Source: Escherichia coli | GTDB lineage: Bacteria > Pseudomonadota > Gammaproteobacteria > Enterobacterales > Enterobacteriaceae | Assembly: GCF_003334785.1 (NCBI RefSeq) | Contig: NZ_QOWV01000002.1 | DNA length: 64,000 nt | Reading direction: 5' to 3' (one strand) | Shown: in pieces, positions 1 to 29,615 of the stretch | Position numbering within the stretch: the stretch's first letter is position 1 | Layout of the letters: each line of letters starts with the position of its first letter | Position numbers and translations under genes: made by a program | Notes under the pieces: model-generated | Databases searched by the model: none | What the model was told of the DNA's origin: nothing | Seen by the model: the letters and a program-made list of their open reading frames with translations, nothing else

Positions 1-354
1 AATACCCTGACTTCTTCGGGTGGCGCAGTACTGGCTGATAAGCGATTTCGTAATTTGAAATGCGCATGGGTCATTCGTTATTTTTGTGAAGATTTCAATT
101 TTTCCAAGATTAGATTTCCCATGCTCTTCGTGTTTACCCTTTAAATCCCACCAGATCTGTGTCAGCTCCGACAGACGTCGCTTGTCTGTTGGTTTTGATA
201 GCCATTCTTTATTGTGGTGGTTGTACAACGTGTATTTCTCGAAAGCGACAGCTTCGCTTTTCTTATCAAACTTCCTACGGATGCGTTTTCCATTACGTCC
301 AGTAGGGCGGATGTCCACTTCATATCGACCATCATCGAGTTTTTTGATTGCCAT
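1..354 (-). CDS. int: P2-type tyrosine integrase, N-terminal 118 codons only (gene runs off the window start)
   Basis: Reverse-strand translation from ATG at 354-352 reads MAIKKLDDGRYEVDIRPTGRNGKRIRRKF..., matching the P2 Int N-terminus as I recall it; adjacent to C repressor as in P2. Not in the ORF track because no stop lies inside the window. Confidence 0.8.
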   Translation of the reverse strand, partial: MAIKKLDDGRYEVDIRPTGRNGKRIRRKFDKKSEAVAFEKYTLYNHHNKEWLSKPTDKRRLSELTQIWWDLKGKHEEHGKSNLGKIEIFTKITNDPCAFQITKSLISQYCATRRSQGI

Positions 355-469
355 CAGAAAACCCTCCGAGTGGTGTGTTTTTTTGCGACTACTAATCGCT
401 TTTTTCGTGGTGGCTGAAATTTAGCCACCAATAGTAGGCACTTGTGATGAATATATTCACGATGAATTG

Positions 470-769
470 TTAACCAGTCTTTTGACCGGAGTGGGGCGAC
501 GTTGTTTCGTTTTGCCCAAAGTGTGCGAGAGCGGGCGCAATTTGCCCGGACTCAGGAGCGATCTGATTGGTCATGAACCATAAAGTGTATTTGGTGAATT
601 GTGGGGTCTGCAGGATGTTCATCATGACATCTGTTGGAGGTGTTGAACGACCACTTTCATAGTAACTCAGCGTGCCATACGGAACCCCTGTTAAATCAGC
701 AAGTTGTTGTCTGCTCAAATACTCTGATTTTCGCATTAAGACTATCTTCTCGCTTATCGTGTTTGACAT
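470..769 (-). CDS. C: P2 immunity repressor C (99 aa)
   Basis: 99-aa ORF MSNTISEKIVLMRKSEYLSRQQLADLTGVPYGTLSYYESG... with HTH; size, sequence and position (between int and cox) match P2 C. Confidence 0.85.
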   Translation of the reverse strand: MSNTISEKIVLMRKSEYLSRQQLADLTGVPYGTLSYYESGRSTPPTDVMMNILQTPQFTKYTLWFMTNQIAPESGQIAPALAHFGQNETTSPHSGQKTG

Positions 770-883
770 GGTGTTTAGATCTCAATAGTATTTAGTTTAG
801 ATGTAGATTGTTTAGTGCTTGGATGTGGGCACTAAAAGGCATTATAAGACATTAAACGCAATTCATGAGGGCTAGAGGACGAC
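770..883. promoter_or_regulatory. Divergent Pc/Pe early control region with C operator direct repeats (TTTAGAT at 774-780 and 796-802, 22 bp apart)
   Basis: Intergenic region between divergent C and cox; two direct TTTAGATNT repeats spaced 22 bp centre to centre, as described for the P2 operator. Confidence 0.5.
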
Positions 884-1030
884 ATGAGCAAGCAAGTAAC
901 ACTCATGACTGATGCGATTCCTTATCAGGAGTTCGCAAAACTAATAGGAAAATCGACATGAAGTGGTTTACTGAATTTGGCCACCTGAACAGAGGTGATA
1001 TGCTCACCTCAGAACAACACAGGTGCCATA

Positions 1031-1333
1031 ATGAAAAAAAGAAATTTCAGCGCAGAGTTTAAACGCGAATCCGCTCAACTGGTCGTTGACCAGAATTACA
1101 CCGTGGCAGATGCAGCCAGCGCTATGGATGTCGGCCTTTCCACAATGACGCGATGGGTGAAACAATTACGTGATGAGCGGCAGGGAAAAACACCAAAAGC
1201 CTCCCCCATTACCCCGGAACAAATTGAAATCCGTGAGCTCAGGAAAAAGCTACAACGTATTGAAATGGAAAATGAAATATTAAAAAAGGCTACCGCGCTC
1301 TTGATGTCAGACTCCCTGAACAGTTCTCGATAA
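1031..1333 (+). CDS. IS911 OrfA (HTH/leucine-zipper transposition regulator)
   Basis: [53 protein letters not shown]... matches IS911 OrfA (InsN) as recalled. Confidence 0.9.
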
Positions 1334-2178
1334 TCGGGAAACTCAGGGCGCGTTATCCTGTGGCCACTCTCTGCCATGTGTTCGGGGTCCATCGCAGCAG
1401 CTACAAATACTGGAAAAACCGTCCTGAAAAGCCAGACGGCAGACGGGCTGTATTACGCAGCCAGGTACTTGAACTGCATGGCATCAGCCACGGCTCTGCC
1501 GGAGCAAGAAGCATCGCCACAATGGCAACCCAGAGAGGCTACCAGATGGGGCGCTGGCTTGCTGGCAGACTCATGAAAGAGCTGGGGCTGGTCAGCTGTC
1601 AGCAGCCGACTTACCGGTATAAACGTGGTGGTCATGAACATGTTGCTATCCCTAACTACCTTGAACGGCAGTTCGCCGTGACCGAGCCAAATCAGGTGTG
1701 GTGCGGTGATGTGACCTATATCTGGACAGGTAAGCGCTGGGCGTACCTCGCCGTTGTTCTCGACCTGTTCGCAAGAAAACCAGTGGGCTGGGCCATGTCG
1801 TTCTCGCCGGACAGCAGGCTTACCATGAAAGCACTGGAAATGGCATGGGAAACCCGTGGTAAGCCCGTCGGGGTGATGTTCCACAGCGATCAAGGCAGTC
1901 ATTATACGAGCAGGCAGTTCCGGCAGTTACTGTGGAGATACCGGATCAGGCAGAGTATGAGTCGGCGTGGAAACTGCTGGGATAACAGCCCAATGGAGCG
2001 CTTCTTCAGGAGTCTGAAGAACGAATGGGTGCCGGCGACGGGCTATGTAAGCTTCAGCGATGCAGCTCACGCAATAACGGACTATATCGTTGGATATTAC
2101 AGCGCACTAAGACCGCACGAATATAATGGTGGGTTACCACCAAACGAATCGGAAAATCGATACTGGAAAAAACTCTAA
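1282..2178 (+). CDS. IS911 OrfB (DDE transposase catalytic part), expressed as OrfAB fusion by -1 frameshift at A-AAA-AAG (1282-1288)
   Basis: ORF in -1 frame relative to OrfA ending at 2178; slippery heptamer AAAAAAG inside the OrfA LKK codons; IS3-family architecture. Confidence 0.85.
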
Positions 2179-2398
2179 CTCGGTGGCCAGTTTTTGTTGA
2201 CCACTTCAACAGGAGCGGTTCGTCGGATGATCGATAAAGGAAAGCTGCCTGTAATTGATATGACCGATCCACAATCAGCTTCAGGTCGTGCAGGTGAATA
2301 TTGGGTATACCTTCCGGCATGGAATAACGGACTAAAACTGGCTTATGAAAGCCGCCCTAAAGAGATTCGTGACGGCTGGTTGATGTGGTTAGGTCTCG

Positions 2399-28023: not shown

Positions 28024-29186
28024 TGCTGGATGCGCTGACATTTGATGCAGGCAGTACGCTGACGCCGGATTACATGCTGATGCTCGACAGCAGGGATATT
28101 ACCGGCAATATCAGCGACCGTCTGATGAGTATGACCCTGACGGATAACCGGGGCTTTGAGGCTGACCAGCTTGATATTGAACTGAACGATGCCGACGGGC
28201 AGGTCGGGCTGCCGGTTCGTGGCGCTGTCCTGACGGTGTATATCGGCTGGAAAGGTTTTGCCCTGGTATGCAAAGGGAAATTCACCGTTGATGAGGTTGA
28301 ACACCGGGGCGCGCCGGATGTGGTCACCATCCGCGCCCGGAGTGCAGATTTCCGCGGGACGCTCAATTCCCGCCGGGAAGGCTCCTGGCATGACACCACG
28401 CTCGGTGCGATTGTTGAGGCGATAGCCTCCCGTAACAGGCTGGAAGCCAGTGTCGCTCCGTCACTGGCCGGAATTAAAATCCCGCACATCGACCAGTCGC
28501 AGGAGTCCGATGTGAAATTCCTGACCCGTCTTGCTGAACGCAACGGCGGCGAGGTGTCGGTAAAAATGGGAAAACTGTTGTTTCTCAAAGCGGGGCAGGG
28601 GGTGACGGCCAGCGGTAATAAAATCCCGCAGGTAACCATTACCCGCAGCGACGGCGACCGCCATCATTTTGCGATTGCTGACCGTGGAGCCTATACCGGC
28701 GTAACGGCAAAGTGGTTACACACCAAAGACCCGAAGCCGCAAAAGCAGAAGGTAAAACTGAAACGCAAAAAGAAAGAAAAACACCTGCGCGCACTGGAGC
28801 ACCCGAAAGCAAAACCGGTCAGGCAGAAGAAAGCGCCAAAAGTACCGGAAGCGCGCGAAGGTGAATACATGGCCGGTGAGGCTGACAACGTTTTTGCCCT
28901 GACTACGGTATATGCCACAAAAGCGCAGGCCATGCGCGCCGCTCAGGCGAAGTGGGATAAACTGCAACGGGGCGTTGCGGAGTTCTCCATCAGCCTGGCT
29001 ACCGGTCGGGCAGATATTTACACGGAAACACCGGTCAAAGTGTCTGGCTTTAAGCGCGTCATAGACGAGCAGGACTGGACAATCACTAAGGTGACACACT
29101 TTCTGAATAATTCCGGCTTCACGACGTCCTTAGAGCTTGAGGTCAGGCTTTCTGATGTGGAGTACGAAACAGAAGATGATGAGTAA
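28023..29186 (+). CDS. D: Tail protein gpD (387 aa)
   Basis: Size and order match P2 D (in K-12 the remnant yegZ is a gpD fragment). Confidence 0.85.
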   Translation: MLDALTFDAGSTLTPDYMLMLDSRDITGNISDRLMSMTLTDNRGFEADQLDIELNDADGQVGLPVRGAVLTVYIGWKGFALVCKGKFTVDEVEHRGAPDVVTIRARSADFRGTLNSRREGSWHDTTLGAIVEAIASRNRLEASVAPSLAGIKIPHIDQSQESDVKFLTRLAERNGGEVSVKMGKLLFLKAGQGVTASGNKIPQVTITRSDGDRHHFAIADRGAYTGVTAKWLHTKDPKPQKQKVKLKRKKKEKHLRALEHPKAKPVRQKKAPKVPEAREGEYMAGEADNVFALTTVYATKAQAMRAAQAKWDKLQRGVAEFSISLATGRADIYTETPVKVSGFKRVIDEQDWTITKVTHFLNNSGFTTSLELEVRLSDVEYETEDDE

Positions 29187-29267
29187 TGTTTTTATTTTAT
29201 CTGTTTGTTTTATAAGGATAAATTAACTAAAATGGCACCATCAACAAAACCGGAAGAGGTGCTCGCG

Positions 29268-29486
29268 ATGTTTCATTGTCCTTTATGCCAGCATGCCGCA
29301 CATGCGCGTACAAGCCGCTATATCACTGACACGACAAAAGAGCGTTATCACCAGTGCCAGAACGTGAATTGCAGCGCCACGTTCATCACTTATGAGTCGG
29401 TACAGAGATACATCGTGAAGCCGGGAGAAGTCCACGCCGTGAGGCCGCACCCGTTGCCGTCAGGGCAGCAAATTATGTGGATGTAA
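29268..29486 (+). CDS. ogr: Late gene transcription activator Ogr (72 aa, zinc finger)
   Basis: MFHCPLCQHAAHARTSRYITDTTKERYHQCQNVNCSATFITYESVQRYIV... with Cys-X2-Cys...Cys-X4-Cys motif. Confidence 0.85.
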   Translation: MFHCPLCQHAAHARTSRYITDTTKERYHQCQNVNCSATFITYESVQRYIVKPGEVHAVRPHPLPSGQQIMWM

Positions 29487-29499
29487 TTACAAACAGAAA

Positions 29500-29524
29500 G
29501 CCCCTCAGTCGAGGGGCTTTTTTT
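29500..29524 (+). terminator. Rho-independent terminator after ogr
   Basis: GCCCCTC-AGTC-GAGGGGC hairpin followed by TTTTTTT. Confidence 0.8.
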
Positions 29525-29588
29525 GTCGATGTGGTCAATGTGTGGACGTGACCAGAAATAAATCCTTTTATTTCATTGTATTACGCGT

Positions 29589-29615
29589 AAAAAATAAGCC
29601 CGTGTAAGGGAGATT
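29589..29615. other. Prophage attachment core (attR), AAAAAATAAGCCCGTGTAAGGGAGATT
   Basis: 27-bp sequence matching the P2 att core as I recall it; coincides with the terminator/3' end of cyaR. Confidence 0.6.

What the first reader, a model, noticed from the sequence alone, without database searches (positions are those of the whole stretch)
1..29615. P2-family prophage that keeps immunity and exclusion genes but has lost excision and lysis: a likely domesticated prophage
The C repressor, the operator repeats and old/tin are intact, as are the replication, head and most tail genes. Missing or broken are cox (IS911), the whole lysis cassette and the R/S tail-completion genes. This pattern fits selection for the host-beneficial functions (immunity, phage exclusion) while the lethal functions decay. 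In K-12 the same locus holds only ogrK and a gpD fragment (yegZ), so this window shows an earlier stage of decay at the same site.
Basis: inference. Interest (0 to 1): 0.5.

Follow-up and report, generated by a model that had tools for sequence, protein, structure and literature searches.

The report
Recently crippled P2 prophage, not domesticated
This is an ordinary phage P2 prophage that was disabled very recently by one insertion element and one 3-kb deletion. Its intact immunity and defence genes reflect how young the damage is, not selection to keep them.

Summary
Window 1-29615 is a P2-type prophage, 97-100% identical to P2. It sits at the yegR/yegQ attachment site where K-12 keeps only ogrK and a gpD fragment. 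C, both operators, old, tin, the replication genes, cos and ogr are intact. cox is split by a 1,250-bp IS3-family element, and the lysis cassette is gone.

Corrections:
- The IS is ISEc52, about 94% identical to IS911.
- The single 2,999-bp deletion also removes L (head completion) and X (tail).
- S is not lost; it lacks only codons 1-11.
- int runs off the window edge and is intact in the source assembly.
- The H/G/fun(Z) region is replaced by an active invertible tail-fibre module.

The domestication reading is not supported. Undamaged copies of the same phage, with 0-1 SNP per 17.8 kb, sit in other E. coli with different host flanks. The cox::IS lesion is confined to a few assemblies. A clonal sister with the same cox::IS kept every lysis gene but deleted tin, old, cos and Q-O. 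This is early, haphazard decay of a grounded prophage.

One side result is unexplained. The identical deletion junction recurs in at least three unrelated P2-type prophages, and its left breakpoint lies at the apex of a strong hairpin.

The parts
1..354 (-). int, N-terminal 118 codons only (cut by the window edge)
   Evidence: tblastn gives 100% identity to P2 Int residues 1-118. In the source contig GCA_003334785.1 the gene is a full 337 aa, with the attL core about 765 bp left of the window start.
473..769 (-). C immunity repressor, intact
   Evidence: 100% identical to P2 C over 99 aa. The DNA at 1-958 is identical to P2.
773..802 (+). Operators O1 (773-780) and O2 (795-802), GTTTAGAT direct repeats over the Pe promoter
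   Evidence: Sequence read. The positions map onto the O1 and O2 features of the P2 record.
884..958 (+). cox 5' fragment (codons 1-25)
   Evidence: tblastn.
959..2208 (+). ISEc52 (IS3 family, IS911-like), 1,250 bp. Target duplication ACA at 956-958 and 2209-2211. orfA/orfB at 1031-2178.
   Evidence: Ends read. NCBIfam transpos_IS3 match. 100% and 99.8% identical to RefSeq copies named ISEc52, about 94% to copies named IS911.
2209..2412 (+). cox 3' fragment (codons 26-91)
   Evidence: tblastn. Gene callers annotate a 72-aa Cox fragment here.
2423..6777 (+). Early and replication genes orf78, B, orf80-83, A and orf91, all intact
   Evidence: Full-length tblastn matches at 88-100% identity.
6816..7577 (-). 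tin (T-even exclusion), intact
   Evidence: 99.2% identical to P2 Tin. PADLOC Tin model, E = 9e-98, full length.
7752..9512 (-). old (OLD-family ATPase/TOPRIM nuclease, lambda exclusion), intact
   Evidence: 100% identical to P2 Old. PADLOC Old model, E = 1e-214.
9707..9725 (+). cos (19-nt cohesive end sequence)
   Evidence: Identical to P2 cosL and cosR.
9895..15608 (.). Head and packaging genes Q and P (minus strand) and O, N and M (plus strand), intact
   Evidence: Full-length tblastn matches at 98.4-99.7% identity.
15655..15658 (+). Deletion junction 15657|15658 (TGAC microhomology). 2,999 bp are missing: L, X, Y, K, lysA, lysB, lysC, R and codons 1-11 of S.
   Evidence: The undeleted sister and relatives carry identical flanks. 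The deleted length was measured against L012.
15648..16076 (+). S' (virion morphogenesis gene lacking its own start and first 11 codons)
   Evidence: tblastn to S residues 10-150. TIGR01635 tail_comp_S match.
16147..19512 (.). orf30 (minus strand) and baseplate genes V, W, J and I, intact
19509..22824 (.). Invertible tail-fibre module. It holds H (19509-20645), G (20647-21087), an inverted alternative chaperone (21059-21661) and alternative H C-terminus (21661-22203), 26-bp Din-type sites at 20323-20348 and 22150-22175, and a serine invertase at 22225-22824. It replaces P2 H, G and fun(Z).
   Evidence: GCA_051122575.1 carries the 99.9%-identical segment (20332-22166) inverted, with the crossover inside the site cores.
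22884..29486 (+). Tail genes FI, FII, E(+E'), T, U and D, and the late activator ogr, all intact
   Evidence: Full-length tblastn matches at 97.8-100% identity.
29589..29615 (+). attR core AAAAAATAAGCCCGTGTAAGGGAGATT, followed by host yegQ/trhP (29760-31121, minus strand)
   Evidence: In most genomes, where the site is unoccupied, similarity to the window begins at query position 2038 or 2046 (window 29581/29589), i.e. at or just before this core.

Best explanation
This is a recently acquired P2-type (Peduovirus) prophage of about 30.4 kb, integrated at the yegR/yegQ attachment site. It has been grounded and then crippled by two ordinary mutational accidents, and it is at the very start of undirected deletional decay.

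Step 1 (shown): ISEc52 transposed into cox codon 25/26, leaving a 3-bp target duplication. In P2, Cox is required for excision and represses the Pc promoter. Its loss should therefore lock the prophage in the chromosome and in the lysogenic state (inferred from P2 biology).

Step 2 (shown): within that IS-bearing clone, one 2,999-bp deletion joined the M-L spacer to S codon 12. It removed L, X, holin Y, endolysin K, lysA/B/C and R, all of which except lysA/B/C are essential. No lysis and no infectious particles are possible without a helper (inferred).

Everything else is unchanged because too little time has passed for further hits. By default, the cell is expected to stay immune to P2 through C bound at O1/O2. 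It is also expected to keep excluding lambda (Old) and T-even phages (Tin) (inferred from 99-100% protein identity to P2). These benefits are real but are not the reason the genes are intact.
For: - Map and gene integrity. IS ends and target duplication.
- Essential or lysogenic-conversion roles of cox, L, X, Y, K, R, S, old and tin are as annotated in the P2 record.
- Window 5648-26076 is 100% identical to GCA_003334785.1 (locus L015); other loci in the same file, including one from that contig, extend the 100% match over window 1-12412. There int and attL are intact.
- Recency: there are 0-2 mismatches per 5-13 kb against prophages sharing the identical gpA. One mismatch in 17.8 kb separates the window from GCA_012211965.1, which has L through R. 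One mismatch in 13.5 kb separates it from GCA_044948165.1, which has intact cox.
- The same phage sits in at least three other host backgrounds. There are 0 mismatches in 1,680 bp on the prophage side, but host flanks are only 97.4-99.2% identical.
- Order of events: cox::IS is shared by GCA_003334785.1, GCA_014451455.1, GCA_002190955.1, GCA_012531155.1 and others. The L-R deletion with these flanks occurs in only 2 contigs of the assembly index.
- Undirected decay: clonal sister GCA_014451455.1 (9 kb of flank 100% identical) lost orf91' through N', including tin, old and cos, and V' through FI'. It kept all lysis genes. A cox+ copy, GCA_054886135.1, lost P through lysB' and J' through FI'. 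GCA_002190955.1 has an inverted O-X block.
- The cox::IS junction is in 0 of 5,426 complete E. coli genomes.
Against: - No expression or phenotype data exist, so immunity and exclusion activity are inferred from sequence identity alone.
- With so few variants, weak selection for old/tin or against lysis genes cannot be excluded.
- C and int are retained in every variant whose left end was seen. This is compatible with selection for immunity, but also with their position at the prophage edge and with recency.
- The L-R deletion recurs in other lineages. That could mean either a mutational hot spot or a selective advantage of losing exactly this block.
Confidence: 0.8

Rival explanations
1. Domesticated prophage. 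The host retains C, Old and Tin under purifying selection, while excision and lysis functions are purged because they are dangerous.
For: The two lesions do hit excision (cox) and a block containing the lysis genes, and C, old and tin are intact and full length. The concept is established for defective prophages in general. It matches the 'grounded prophage' model, in which loss of excision with retained immunity is favoured (PMC6379469). Loss of exactly the L-R block recurs in other lineages.
Against: C, old and tin make up about 8% of the prophage, so two random hits would miss them about 85% of the time (my estimate from the gene lengths). About 25 structural genes that are now useless are equally intact. 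Divergence from undamaged copies is 0-1 SNP per 13-18 kb, which leaves no time for selection to be visible. The clonal sister lost old and tin and kept holin and endolysin. The configuration is confined to 2 contigs (2 samples) of the assembly index, of which only GCA_003334785.1 is named. P2 is not SOS-inducible (established knowledge), so the lethal risk removed is small.
Confidence: 0.1
2. Helper-dependent, mobilisable defective phage. The element keeps cos, terminase, capsid genes, int, ori/A and ogr. A superinfecting or co-resident P2-like phage could supply Cox, L, X, R, S and lysis in trans and package the 30.4-kb genome.
For: cos is identical to P2. Q, P, O, N, M, A, B and ogr are intact, and int is intact in the source contig. 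The genome size lies within P2 head capacity (my arithmetic). P2-like prophages are common: about 1,570 of 5,426 genomes have P2-like M/S sequence, often at two or more places.
Against: There is no second P2-like element in the 64-kb window, and the rest of the genome could not be searched. A resident C repressor would block a homo-immune helper. The cox::IS forms seen so far share one host flank where a flank is visible, which suggests vertical rather than horizontal spread of the damaged form.
Confidence: 0.07
3. Assembly or sequencing artefact producing the apparent IS insertion and deletion.
For: Draft assemblies often break or mis-join at IS copies. Several related contigs do end at this IS.
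Against: The IS has both ends in place with a clean 3-bp target duplication. The same cox::IS junction is present in independent assemblies. The deletion junction has only 4 nt of microhomology, too short to cause a mis-join, and is seen in two samples.
Confidence: 0.02

Closest known systems
Bacteriophage P2 (NC_001895 / AF063097), type Peduovirus
   Same: Gene order, cos, the attP core, C with O1/O2, cox position, old/tin cargo and ogr are the same. Identity is 97-100% over about 25.9 kb of the 29.6 kb, and the immunity region is 100% identical.
   Different: cox is interrupted by ISEc52. The 2,999-bp L-R block is deleted. H, G and fun(Z) are replaced by an invertible tail-fibre module. orf30 is 88% and I is 82% identical at the protein level.
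K-12 cryptic P2 remnant ogrK-yegZ
   Same: It occupies the same chromosomal site, between yegR and yegQ/trhP, with the same attR core and ogr.
   Different: K-12 retains only about 640 bp (a D fragment, ogr and attR). It is 97.9% identical, so it comes from a different P2 lineage and a separate lysogenisation. About 13% of complete genomes carry a P2-like right end here, about 7% carry a K-12-like remnant, and most are empty (rough proportions).
Escherichia phage pro483 (KR073661) and similar P2-likes with a Hin/Cin-type tail-fibre switch
   Same: The tail-fibre region 19300-22900 matches at 94.8% over 78%. It has the same layout of H, chaperones, inverted alternatives and DNA invertase.
   Different: pro483 is a complete phage, and its cargo and immunity regions differ.
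'Grounded' or defective prophages of E. coli (concept of Ramisetty & Sudhakari 2019, PMC6379469; for example e14, Rac, DLP12, Qin)
   Same: Excision is lost, immunity is retained, and deletional decay follows.
   Different: Those elements are old, heavily eroded and widely shared. This one is days-to-centuries young on the molecular clock and nearly complete, and grounding occurred by an IS in the excisionase gene.
Defective P2-like prophages IAL7250 (NZ_CM130729) and GCA_000461215.1
   Same: They carry the identical L-R deletion junction, plus further deletions.
   Different: They have different flanking haplotypes, different cargo (ParB/Dam, or S8 peptidase with an AAA ATPase) and, for one, a different att site (pflB-focA). 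cox is intact in IAL7250.

Membership tests
P2-type (Peduovirus) prophage | Colinear P2 gene order with high nucleotide identity | tested here: met
   Five colinear blocks at 94.8-99.9% identity. 32 of 42 P2 proteins are matched full length.
P2-type (Peduovirus) prophage | P2 attachment core at the prophage-host junction, and a cos site | tested here: met
   The 27-nt core lies at 29589-29615, and at attL in the source contig. The 19-nt cos is identical to P2.
P2-type (Peduovirus) prophage | C repressor with two directly repeated operators over Pe, and an Ogr late activator | tested here: met
   C and ogr are 100% identical to P2. The GTTTAGAT repeat occurs twice, 22 bp apart.
Functional (plaque-forming) P2 prophage | Intact cox, L, X, Y, K, R and S, which are essential for excision, particle completion and lysis | tested here: not met
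   cox is split by the IS. L, X, Y, K and R are absent and S lacks 11 codons.
Domesticated prophage (selectively retained genes) | Long vertical persistence of the defective element across related strains | tested here: not met
   The cox::IS junction is in 0 of 5,426 complete genomes. This deletion occurs in 2 contigs overall. Divergence from intact copies is 0-1 SNP per 13-18 kb.
Domesticated prophage (selectively retained genes) | Preferential retention of host-beneficial genes, and preferential loss of lethal ones, among independent derivatives | tested here: not met
   The clonal sister lost old, tin and cos and kept Y, K and lysABC. Another copy lost P through lysB'. The pattern is haphazard.
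Domesticated prophage (selectively retained genes) | Purifying selection (dN/dS below 1) on retained genes after inactivation | not testable with these tools
   There are too few substitutions since inactivation (0-2 SNPs) for any dN/dS estimate.
Grounded prophage (loss of excision, immunity kept) | An excision function is inactivated while the repressor and operators are intact | tested here: met
   cox::ISEc52 is present, and the C/O1/O2 region is 100% identical to P2. The concept comes from PMC6379469. Actual failure to excise was not tested.
IS911 (sensu stricto) | IS3-family architecture: about 1,250 bp, orfA/orfB in the -1 frame, TGAAGTGG inverted-repeat ends, 3-bp target duplication | tested here: met
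IS911 (sensu stricto) | Near identity to IS911 rather than to another named IS | tested here: not met
   It is 100% and 99.8% identical to copies annotated ISEc52 and 93.9-94.1% identical to copies annotated IS911.
Din-family (Gin/Cin/Pin/Hin) invertible tail-fibre switch | A serine invertase plus two inverted 26-bp sites that flank alternative fibre C-termini and chaperones, with both orientations found in nature | tested here: met
   Resolvase-type recombinase. Sites at 20323-20348 and 22150-22175. The 1,835-bp segment is inverted in the 99.9%-identical prophage of GCA_051122575.1.
R-type tailocin | A tail and lysis cassette without head, packaging or replication genes | tested here: not met
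   Head, terminase and replication genes are present, while the lysis cassette and the tail genes X and R are absent.

The most novel reading that the evidence does not exclude
The 2,999-bp L-R deletion may not be a one-off accident. It may be a recurrent, DNA-structure-directed event that joins the apex of the conserved M-L spacer hairpin to a small hairpin loop at the R/S overlap. If so, it repeatedly and precisely strips P2-type prophages of head completion, tail completion and the whole lysis cassette.

The event has arisen independently in at least two, probably three, P2 lineages, at two different chromosomal sites. It would be a predictable first step in disarming this phage family.
Probability: 0.5. 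Interest if true: 0.5.

Novelty: new member of a known kind. Interest (0 to 1): 0.3.

Why it matters
As submitted, the finding is an ordinary defective P2 prophage, and its intact immunity and exclusion genes need no special explanation.

The comparison set does add something useful. It is a near-zero-SNP family of the same prophage caught in several different states of damage:
- intact;
- cox::IS only, with an inversion;
- cox::IS plus the L-R deletion;
- cox::IS plus loss of old, tin and the head genes;
- cox+ with other deletions.

This shows directly that large deletions and IS hits outrun point mutation, and that early prophage decay has no consistent direction. It is a concrete counter-example to reading 'domestication' from a single genome.

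The recurrent identical deletion junction, if it is a true hot spot, would be a testable case of structure-directed prophage disarmament.

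Tried and rejected
- Looked for the deletion junction in GTDB species representatives and in JGI metagenomes. There were no hits. IMG/VR gave one hit.
- Tested whether microhomology alone explains the recurrent junction. Only TGA(C) is shared. Similarity within 10 nt either side is unremarkable (5% of random pairs do as well), and about 0.5% of position pairs share 4 nt. Rejected as sufficient.
- Compared both breakpoints with the P2 ori nick site, as a test of gpA-mediated cleavage. There is no resemblance.
- Compared the breakpoints with Din-invertase sites. 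There is no resemblance; the only two core-like matches in the window are the tail-fibre sites.
- Asked whether the M-L hairpin is an intrinsic terminator. The simple scan does not call it one.
- Considered that the window's deletion was imported by recombination from IAL7250-like or GCA_000461215-like donors. Rejected, because the window's flanks are identical to undeleted members of its own lineage for at least 6.5 kb on the left and 11 kb on the right, while the other carriers differ at -6/+8 and at about 2% beyond.
- Considered E. coli B's defective P2-like prophage as the source (from memory). Not supported, because neither junction occurs in any RefSeq complete genome other than IAL7250.
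- A look-up with a 214-aa N fragment returned an unrelated, frameshift-ridden genome and was wasted.
- No tRNA lies at the att site, as expected for P2.

Full report
**What is there.** Window 1-29615 aligns to phage P2 (NC_001895) in five colinear blocks.
- Window 1-961 matches P2 25122-26082.
- Window 2206-9725 matches P2 26074-33593.
- Window 9707-15657 matches P2 1-5949.
- Window 15652-19337 matches P2 8943-12629.
- Window 22804-29615 matches P2 17572-24382.

P2 is also the best phage hit overall (81% coverage, 97.6% identity). This is the order expected of an integrated P2: int-C-cox-B-A-tin-old-cos-Q-P-O-N-M...D-ogr-attR. The window starts inside int, so only codons 1-118 are visible. The 27-nt P2 core AAAAAATAAGCCCGTGTAAGGGAGATT ends the element at 29589-29615. 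It is followed by yegQ/trhP, yegP, baeR, baeS and mdtDCBA.

Window 5648-26076 is 100% identical to contig QOWV01000002.1 of assembly GCA_003334785.1, and further loci in the same file extend the 100% match over 1-12412. In that contig, int is a complete 337-aa gene. attL lies about 765 bp left of the window start, next to yegR. The whole prophage is about 30.4 kb.

**Check of the observation: what holds.**
- Window 1-958 is base-for-base identical to P2. It includes C (473-769) and the two GTTTAGAT operators at 773-780 and 795-802.
- Old is 100% and Tin 99.2% identical to P2 and full length. Both match the PADLOC Old and Tin models end to end.
- All early and replication genes are full length without gaps, as are Q, P, O, N, M, orf30, V, W, J, I, FI, FII, E, T, U, D and ogr. 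cos is identical to P2.
- cox is split after codon 25 by a 1,250-bp IS3-family element at 959-2208. The element has TGAAGTGG...CCACTTCA ends and a 3-bp ACA target duplication.
- Y, K, lysA, lysB, lysC and R are absent.

**Check of the observation: corrections.**
1. Copies 100% and 99.8% identical to this IS are named ISEc52 in RefSeq. Copies named IS911 are only about 94% identical.
2. There is a single deletion of exactly 2,999 bp (P2 5950-8948), with its junction at window 15657|15658. It also takes out L (head completion) and X (an essential tail gene, per the P2 annotation).
3. S is not lost. Codons 12-150 remain as a 142-codon ORF.
4. P2 H, G and fun(Z) are replaced by a pro483-type tail-fibre module (94.8% identity over 78%). 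It has a serine invertase and two 26-bp Din-type sites.
5. That switch is active. The prophage in GCA_051122575.1 carries the same 1,835-bp segment at 99.9% identity in the opposite orientation, with the crossover inside the site cores.

**The locus across E. coli.** A query spanning U-D-ogr-attR-yegQ was compared with 5,426 complete genomes.
- About 730 genomes (13%) carry a P2-like right end joined to yegQ.
- About 7% carry the K-12 type remnant, which starts inside D at about window 28975 and includes ogrK.
- In most genomes the match begins at or just before the core sequence, meaning the attachment site is empty.

The K-12 remnant is only 97.9% identical, and occupancy of the site is patchy. 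It is an independent lysogen that decayed further, not a later stage of this prophage.

**How old is the damage?** The cox::IS junction occurs in none of the 5,426 complete genomes. Exact-protein look-ups in the large assembly index gave three results.
- The truncated S' of this lineage is in only 2 contigs: GCA_003334785.1 and a duplicate.
- The 72-aa Cox fragment created by the IS is in 7 contigs from four to five assemblies.
- The identical 761-aa gpA is in 17 contigs.

All prophages sharing that gpA are 99.9-100% identical to the window over every shared segment.
- GCA_012211965.1, which has L through R, differs by 1 mismatch in 17.8 kb.
- GCA_044948165.1, which has intact cox and L and X, differs by 1 mismatch in 13.5 kb.
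- Several others show no mismatches.

On the prophage side of attL there are 0 differences in 1,680 bp, yet the host flanks of three carriers are only 97.4-99.2% identical to the source strain. The same phage has therefore recently lysogenised several different E. coli. With typical E. coli clock rates (my own knowledge, rough), 0-1 SNP in about 18 kb means decades to a few centuries at most.

**A natural test of the domestication idea.** Several copies of the same phage show different damage.
- *GCA_014451455.1* has exactly the same cox::IS junction, and its flank plus prophage left end is 100% identical over 9 kb. It is a clonal sister. It retains L, X, Y, K, lysA, lysB, lysC, R and S. It has deleted orf91' through N' (window 6624|14119), which removes tin, old, cos, Q, P and O. 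It has also deleted V' through FI' (17378|23260). ERR4578769 shows the same state.
- *GCA_002190955.1* has cox::IS with the O-X block inverted.
- *GCA_054886135.1* has intact cox in a different host. It lost P through lysB' and J' through FI'.

Within a time too short for point mutations, the same prophage has thus been hit by at least six different rearrangements with no consistent direction. One derivative lost the 'beneficial' genes and kept the 'lethal' ones.

In the window itself the argument from pattern is also weak. C, old and tin make up about 8% of the element, so two random lesions would spare them about 85% of the time. About 25 structural genes that can no longer make a particle are just as intact as old and tin. 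P2 is also not SOS-inducible (established knowledge), so the lethal risk removed by losing cox and lysis is small.

I conclude that the prophage is defective and 'grounded' in the sense of PMC6379469. Its gene content reflects recency and chance, not demonstrable selection.

**How it most likely works now.** The following is inferred from P2 biology as annotated, combined with the sequence results here. C made from Pc occupies O1/O2 and keeps Pe shut, which gives immunity to P2. Old and Tin, transcribed from their own promoter, should exclude lambda and T-even phages. One SNP at 9554 lies 2-4 nt from the mapped transcript starts. Without Cox, the switch away from Pc and Int-mediated excision are blocked. 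Even if late genes were activated, the absence of L, X, R, holin and endolysin prevents particle completion and lysis. The element keeps cos, terminase, capsid genes, ori/A, int and ogr, so complementation and packaging by a hetero-immune P2-type helper is not excluded. It could not be tested here.

**The unexpected part.** The junction ...CAGTGA(G/C)GGTGA|CCGGACT(T/G)ATTG... also occurs in other prophages.
- *E. coli IAL7250* carries it at the same yegR/yegQ site. Its cox is intact, its cargo is ParB/Dam instead of old/tin, and it has further deletions.
- *SRR34701484* is a relative of IAL7250 with an additional A'-P' deletion.
- *GCA_000461215.1* (the same as IMGVR_UViG_2541047936_000006) carries it at a different site, next to pflB-focA-ycaO. 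Its cargo is an S8 peptidase with an AAA ATPase.

The three carriers differ from one another at -6 and/or +8 and by about 2% over the next kilobase. Each one's flanks are matched exactly by undeleted phages of its own type.
- The window's flanks match its own lineage for at least 300 nt on each side. By BLAST they match for 6.5 kb on the left and 11.3 kb on the right.
- IAL7250's right flank matches P2 itself.
- The left flank of GCA_000461215.1 matches another intact prophage.

The window's deletion therefore arose in situ, after the IS insertion, and independently of the others.

The shared microhomology is only TGA (TGAC in this lineage). About 0.5% of position pairs are equally good, so coincidence is not credible. 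The left breakpoint falls in the apical loop of a strong imperfect palindrome in the M-L spacer. Its DNA fold is -24.3 kcal/mol, with z = -4.5 and 0 of 200 shuffles as stable. It is conserved in this lineage at -22.3 kcal/mol. The right breakpoint is at the 3' edge of the CTGA loop of a CCGG/CCGG mini-hairpin. Neither breakpoint resembles the P2 ori nick site or the invertase sites.

The event is rare. Only 1 of 1,573 complete genomes with P2-like M/S sequence has it, and there are no hits in GTDB representatives or JGI metagenomes.

I regard a structure-associated deletion hot spot as the most likely reading (about 0.5). The alternative is one ancestral deletion whose flanks were later overwritten up to the heterology boundary. 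The mechanism is unresolved.

**Verdict.** This is a new member of a well-known kind, a recently grounded and defective P2-type prophage. Interest is low to moderate. It is lifted slightly by the clean decay series among near-identical copies and by the recurrent hairpin-apex deletion.

Noticed in passing
window 15657|15658; L002 11197|11198; L021 about 10010; L033 about 10010: The identical 2,999-bp L-R deletion junction occurs in at least three P2-type prophage lineages with different flanks, cargo and (in one case) att site. The left breakpoint sits at the apex of a strong hairpin in the M-L spacer. It looks like a deletion hot spot, but the mechanism is unknown.
   Followed up: yes
window 20323-20348 and 22150-22175 (segment 20332-22166); L009 4767-6601: An active Din-type invertible tail-fibre segment. 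A 99.9%-identical prophage (GCA_051122575.1) has the segment in the opposite orientation, which swaps the H C-terminus and its chaperone.
   Followed up: yes
L028 (GCA_002190955.1) 10602-14322, equivalent to window 12846-15658: In this cox::IS sister the O-N-M-L-X block is inverted relative to Q-P. The breakpoints lie in the P/O divergent promoter region and after X. The cause was not examined.
   Followed up: partly
window 23260 and 23282 (inside FI): Two independent deletions in sister prophages end only 22 bp apart inside FI: V'-FI' in GCA_014451455.1 and J'-FI' in GCA_054886135.1. This may be another fragile spot.
   Followed up: no
L002, L004 and several records: Many RefSeq E. coli chromosome records begin exactly at the P2-like gpA gene ('replication endonuclease'), or 26-30 kb upstream of yegQ. 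Start-fixing software has probably mistaken gpA for a replication initiator.
   Followed up: no
L002 15559-16153 (IAL7250), equivalent to window about 31150-31250: IAL7250 carries a ParD/ParE toxin-antitoxin pair inserted between trhP/yegQ and yegP. The window lacks it.
   Followed up: no
window 9554: There is a single G/A difference from P2, 2-4 nt from the mapped old-tin transcript start sites. Its effect on expression is unknown.
   Followed up: no
window 42900-43500: Tandemly repeated units of about 250 bp lie downstream of mdtA, 84% identical to each other. They correspond to the Ibs type I toxin copies annotated in IAL7250.
   Followed up: no
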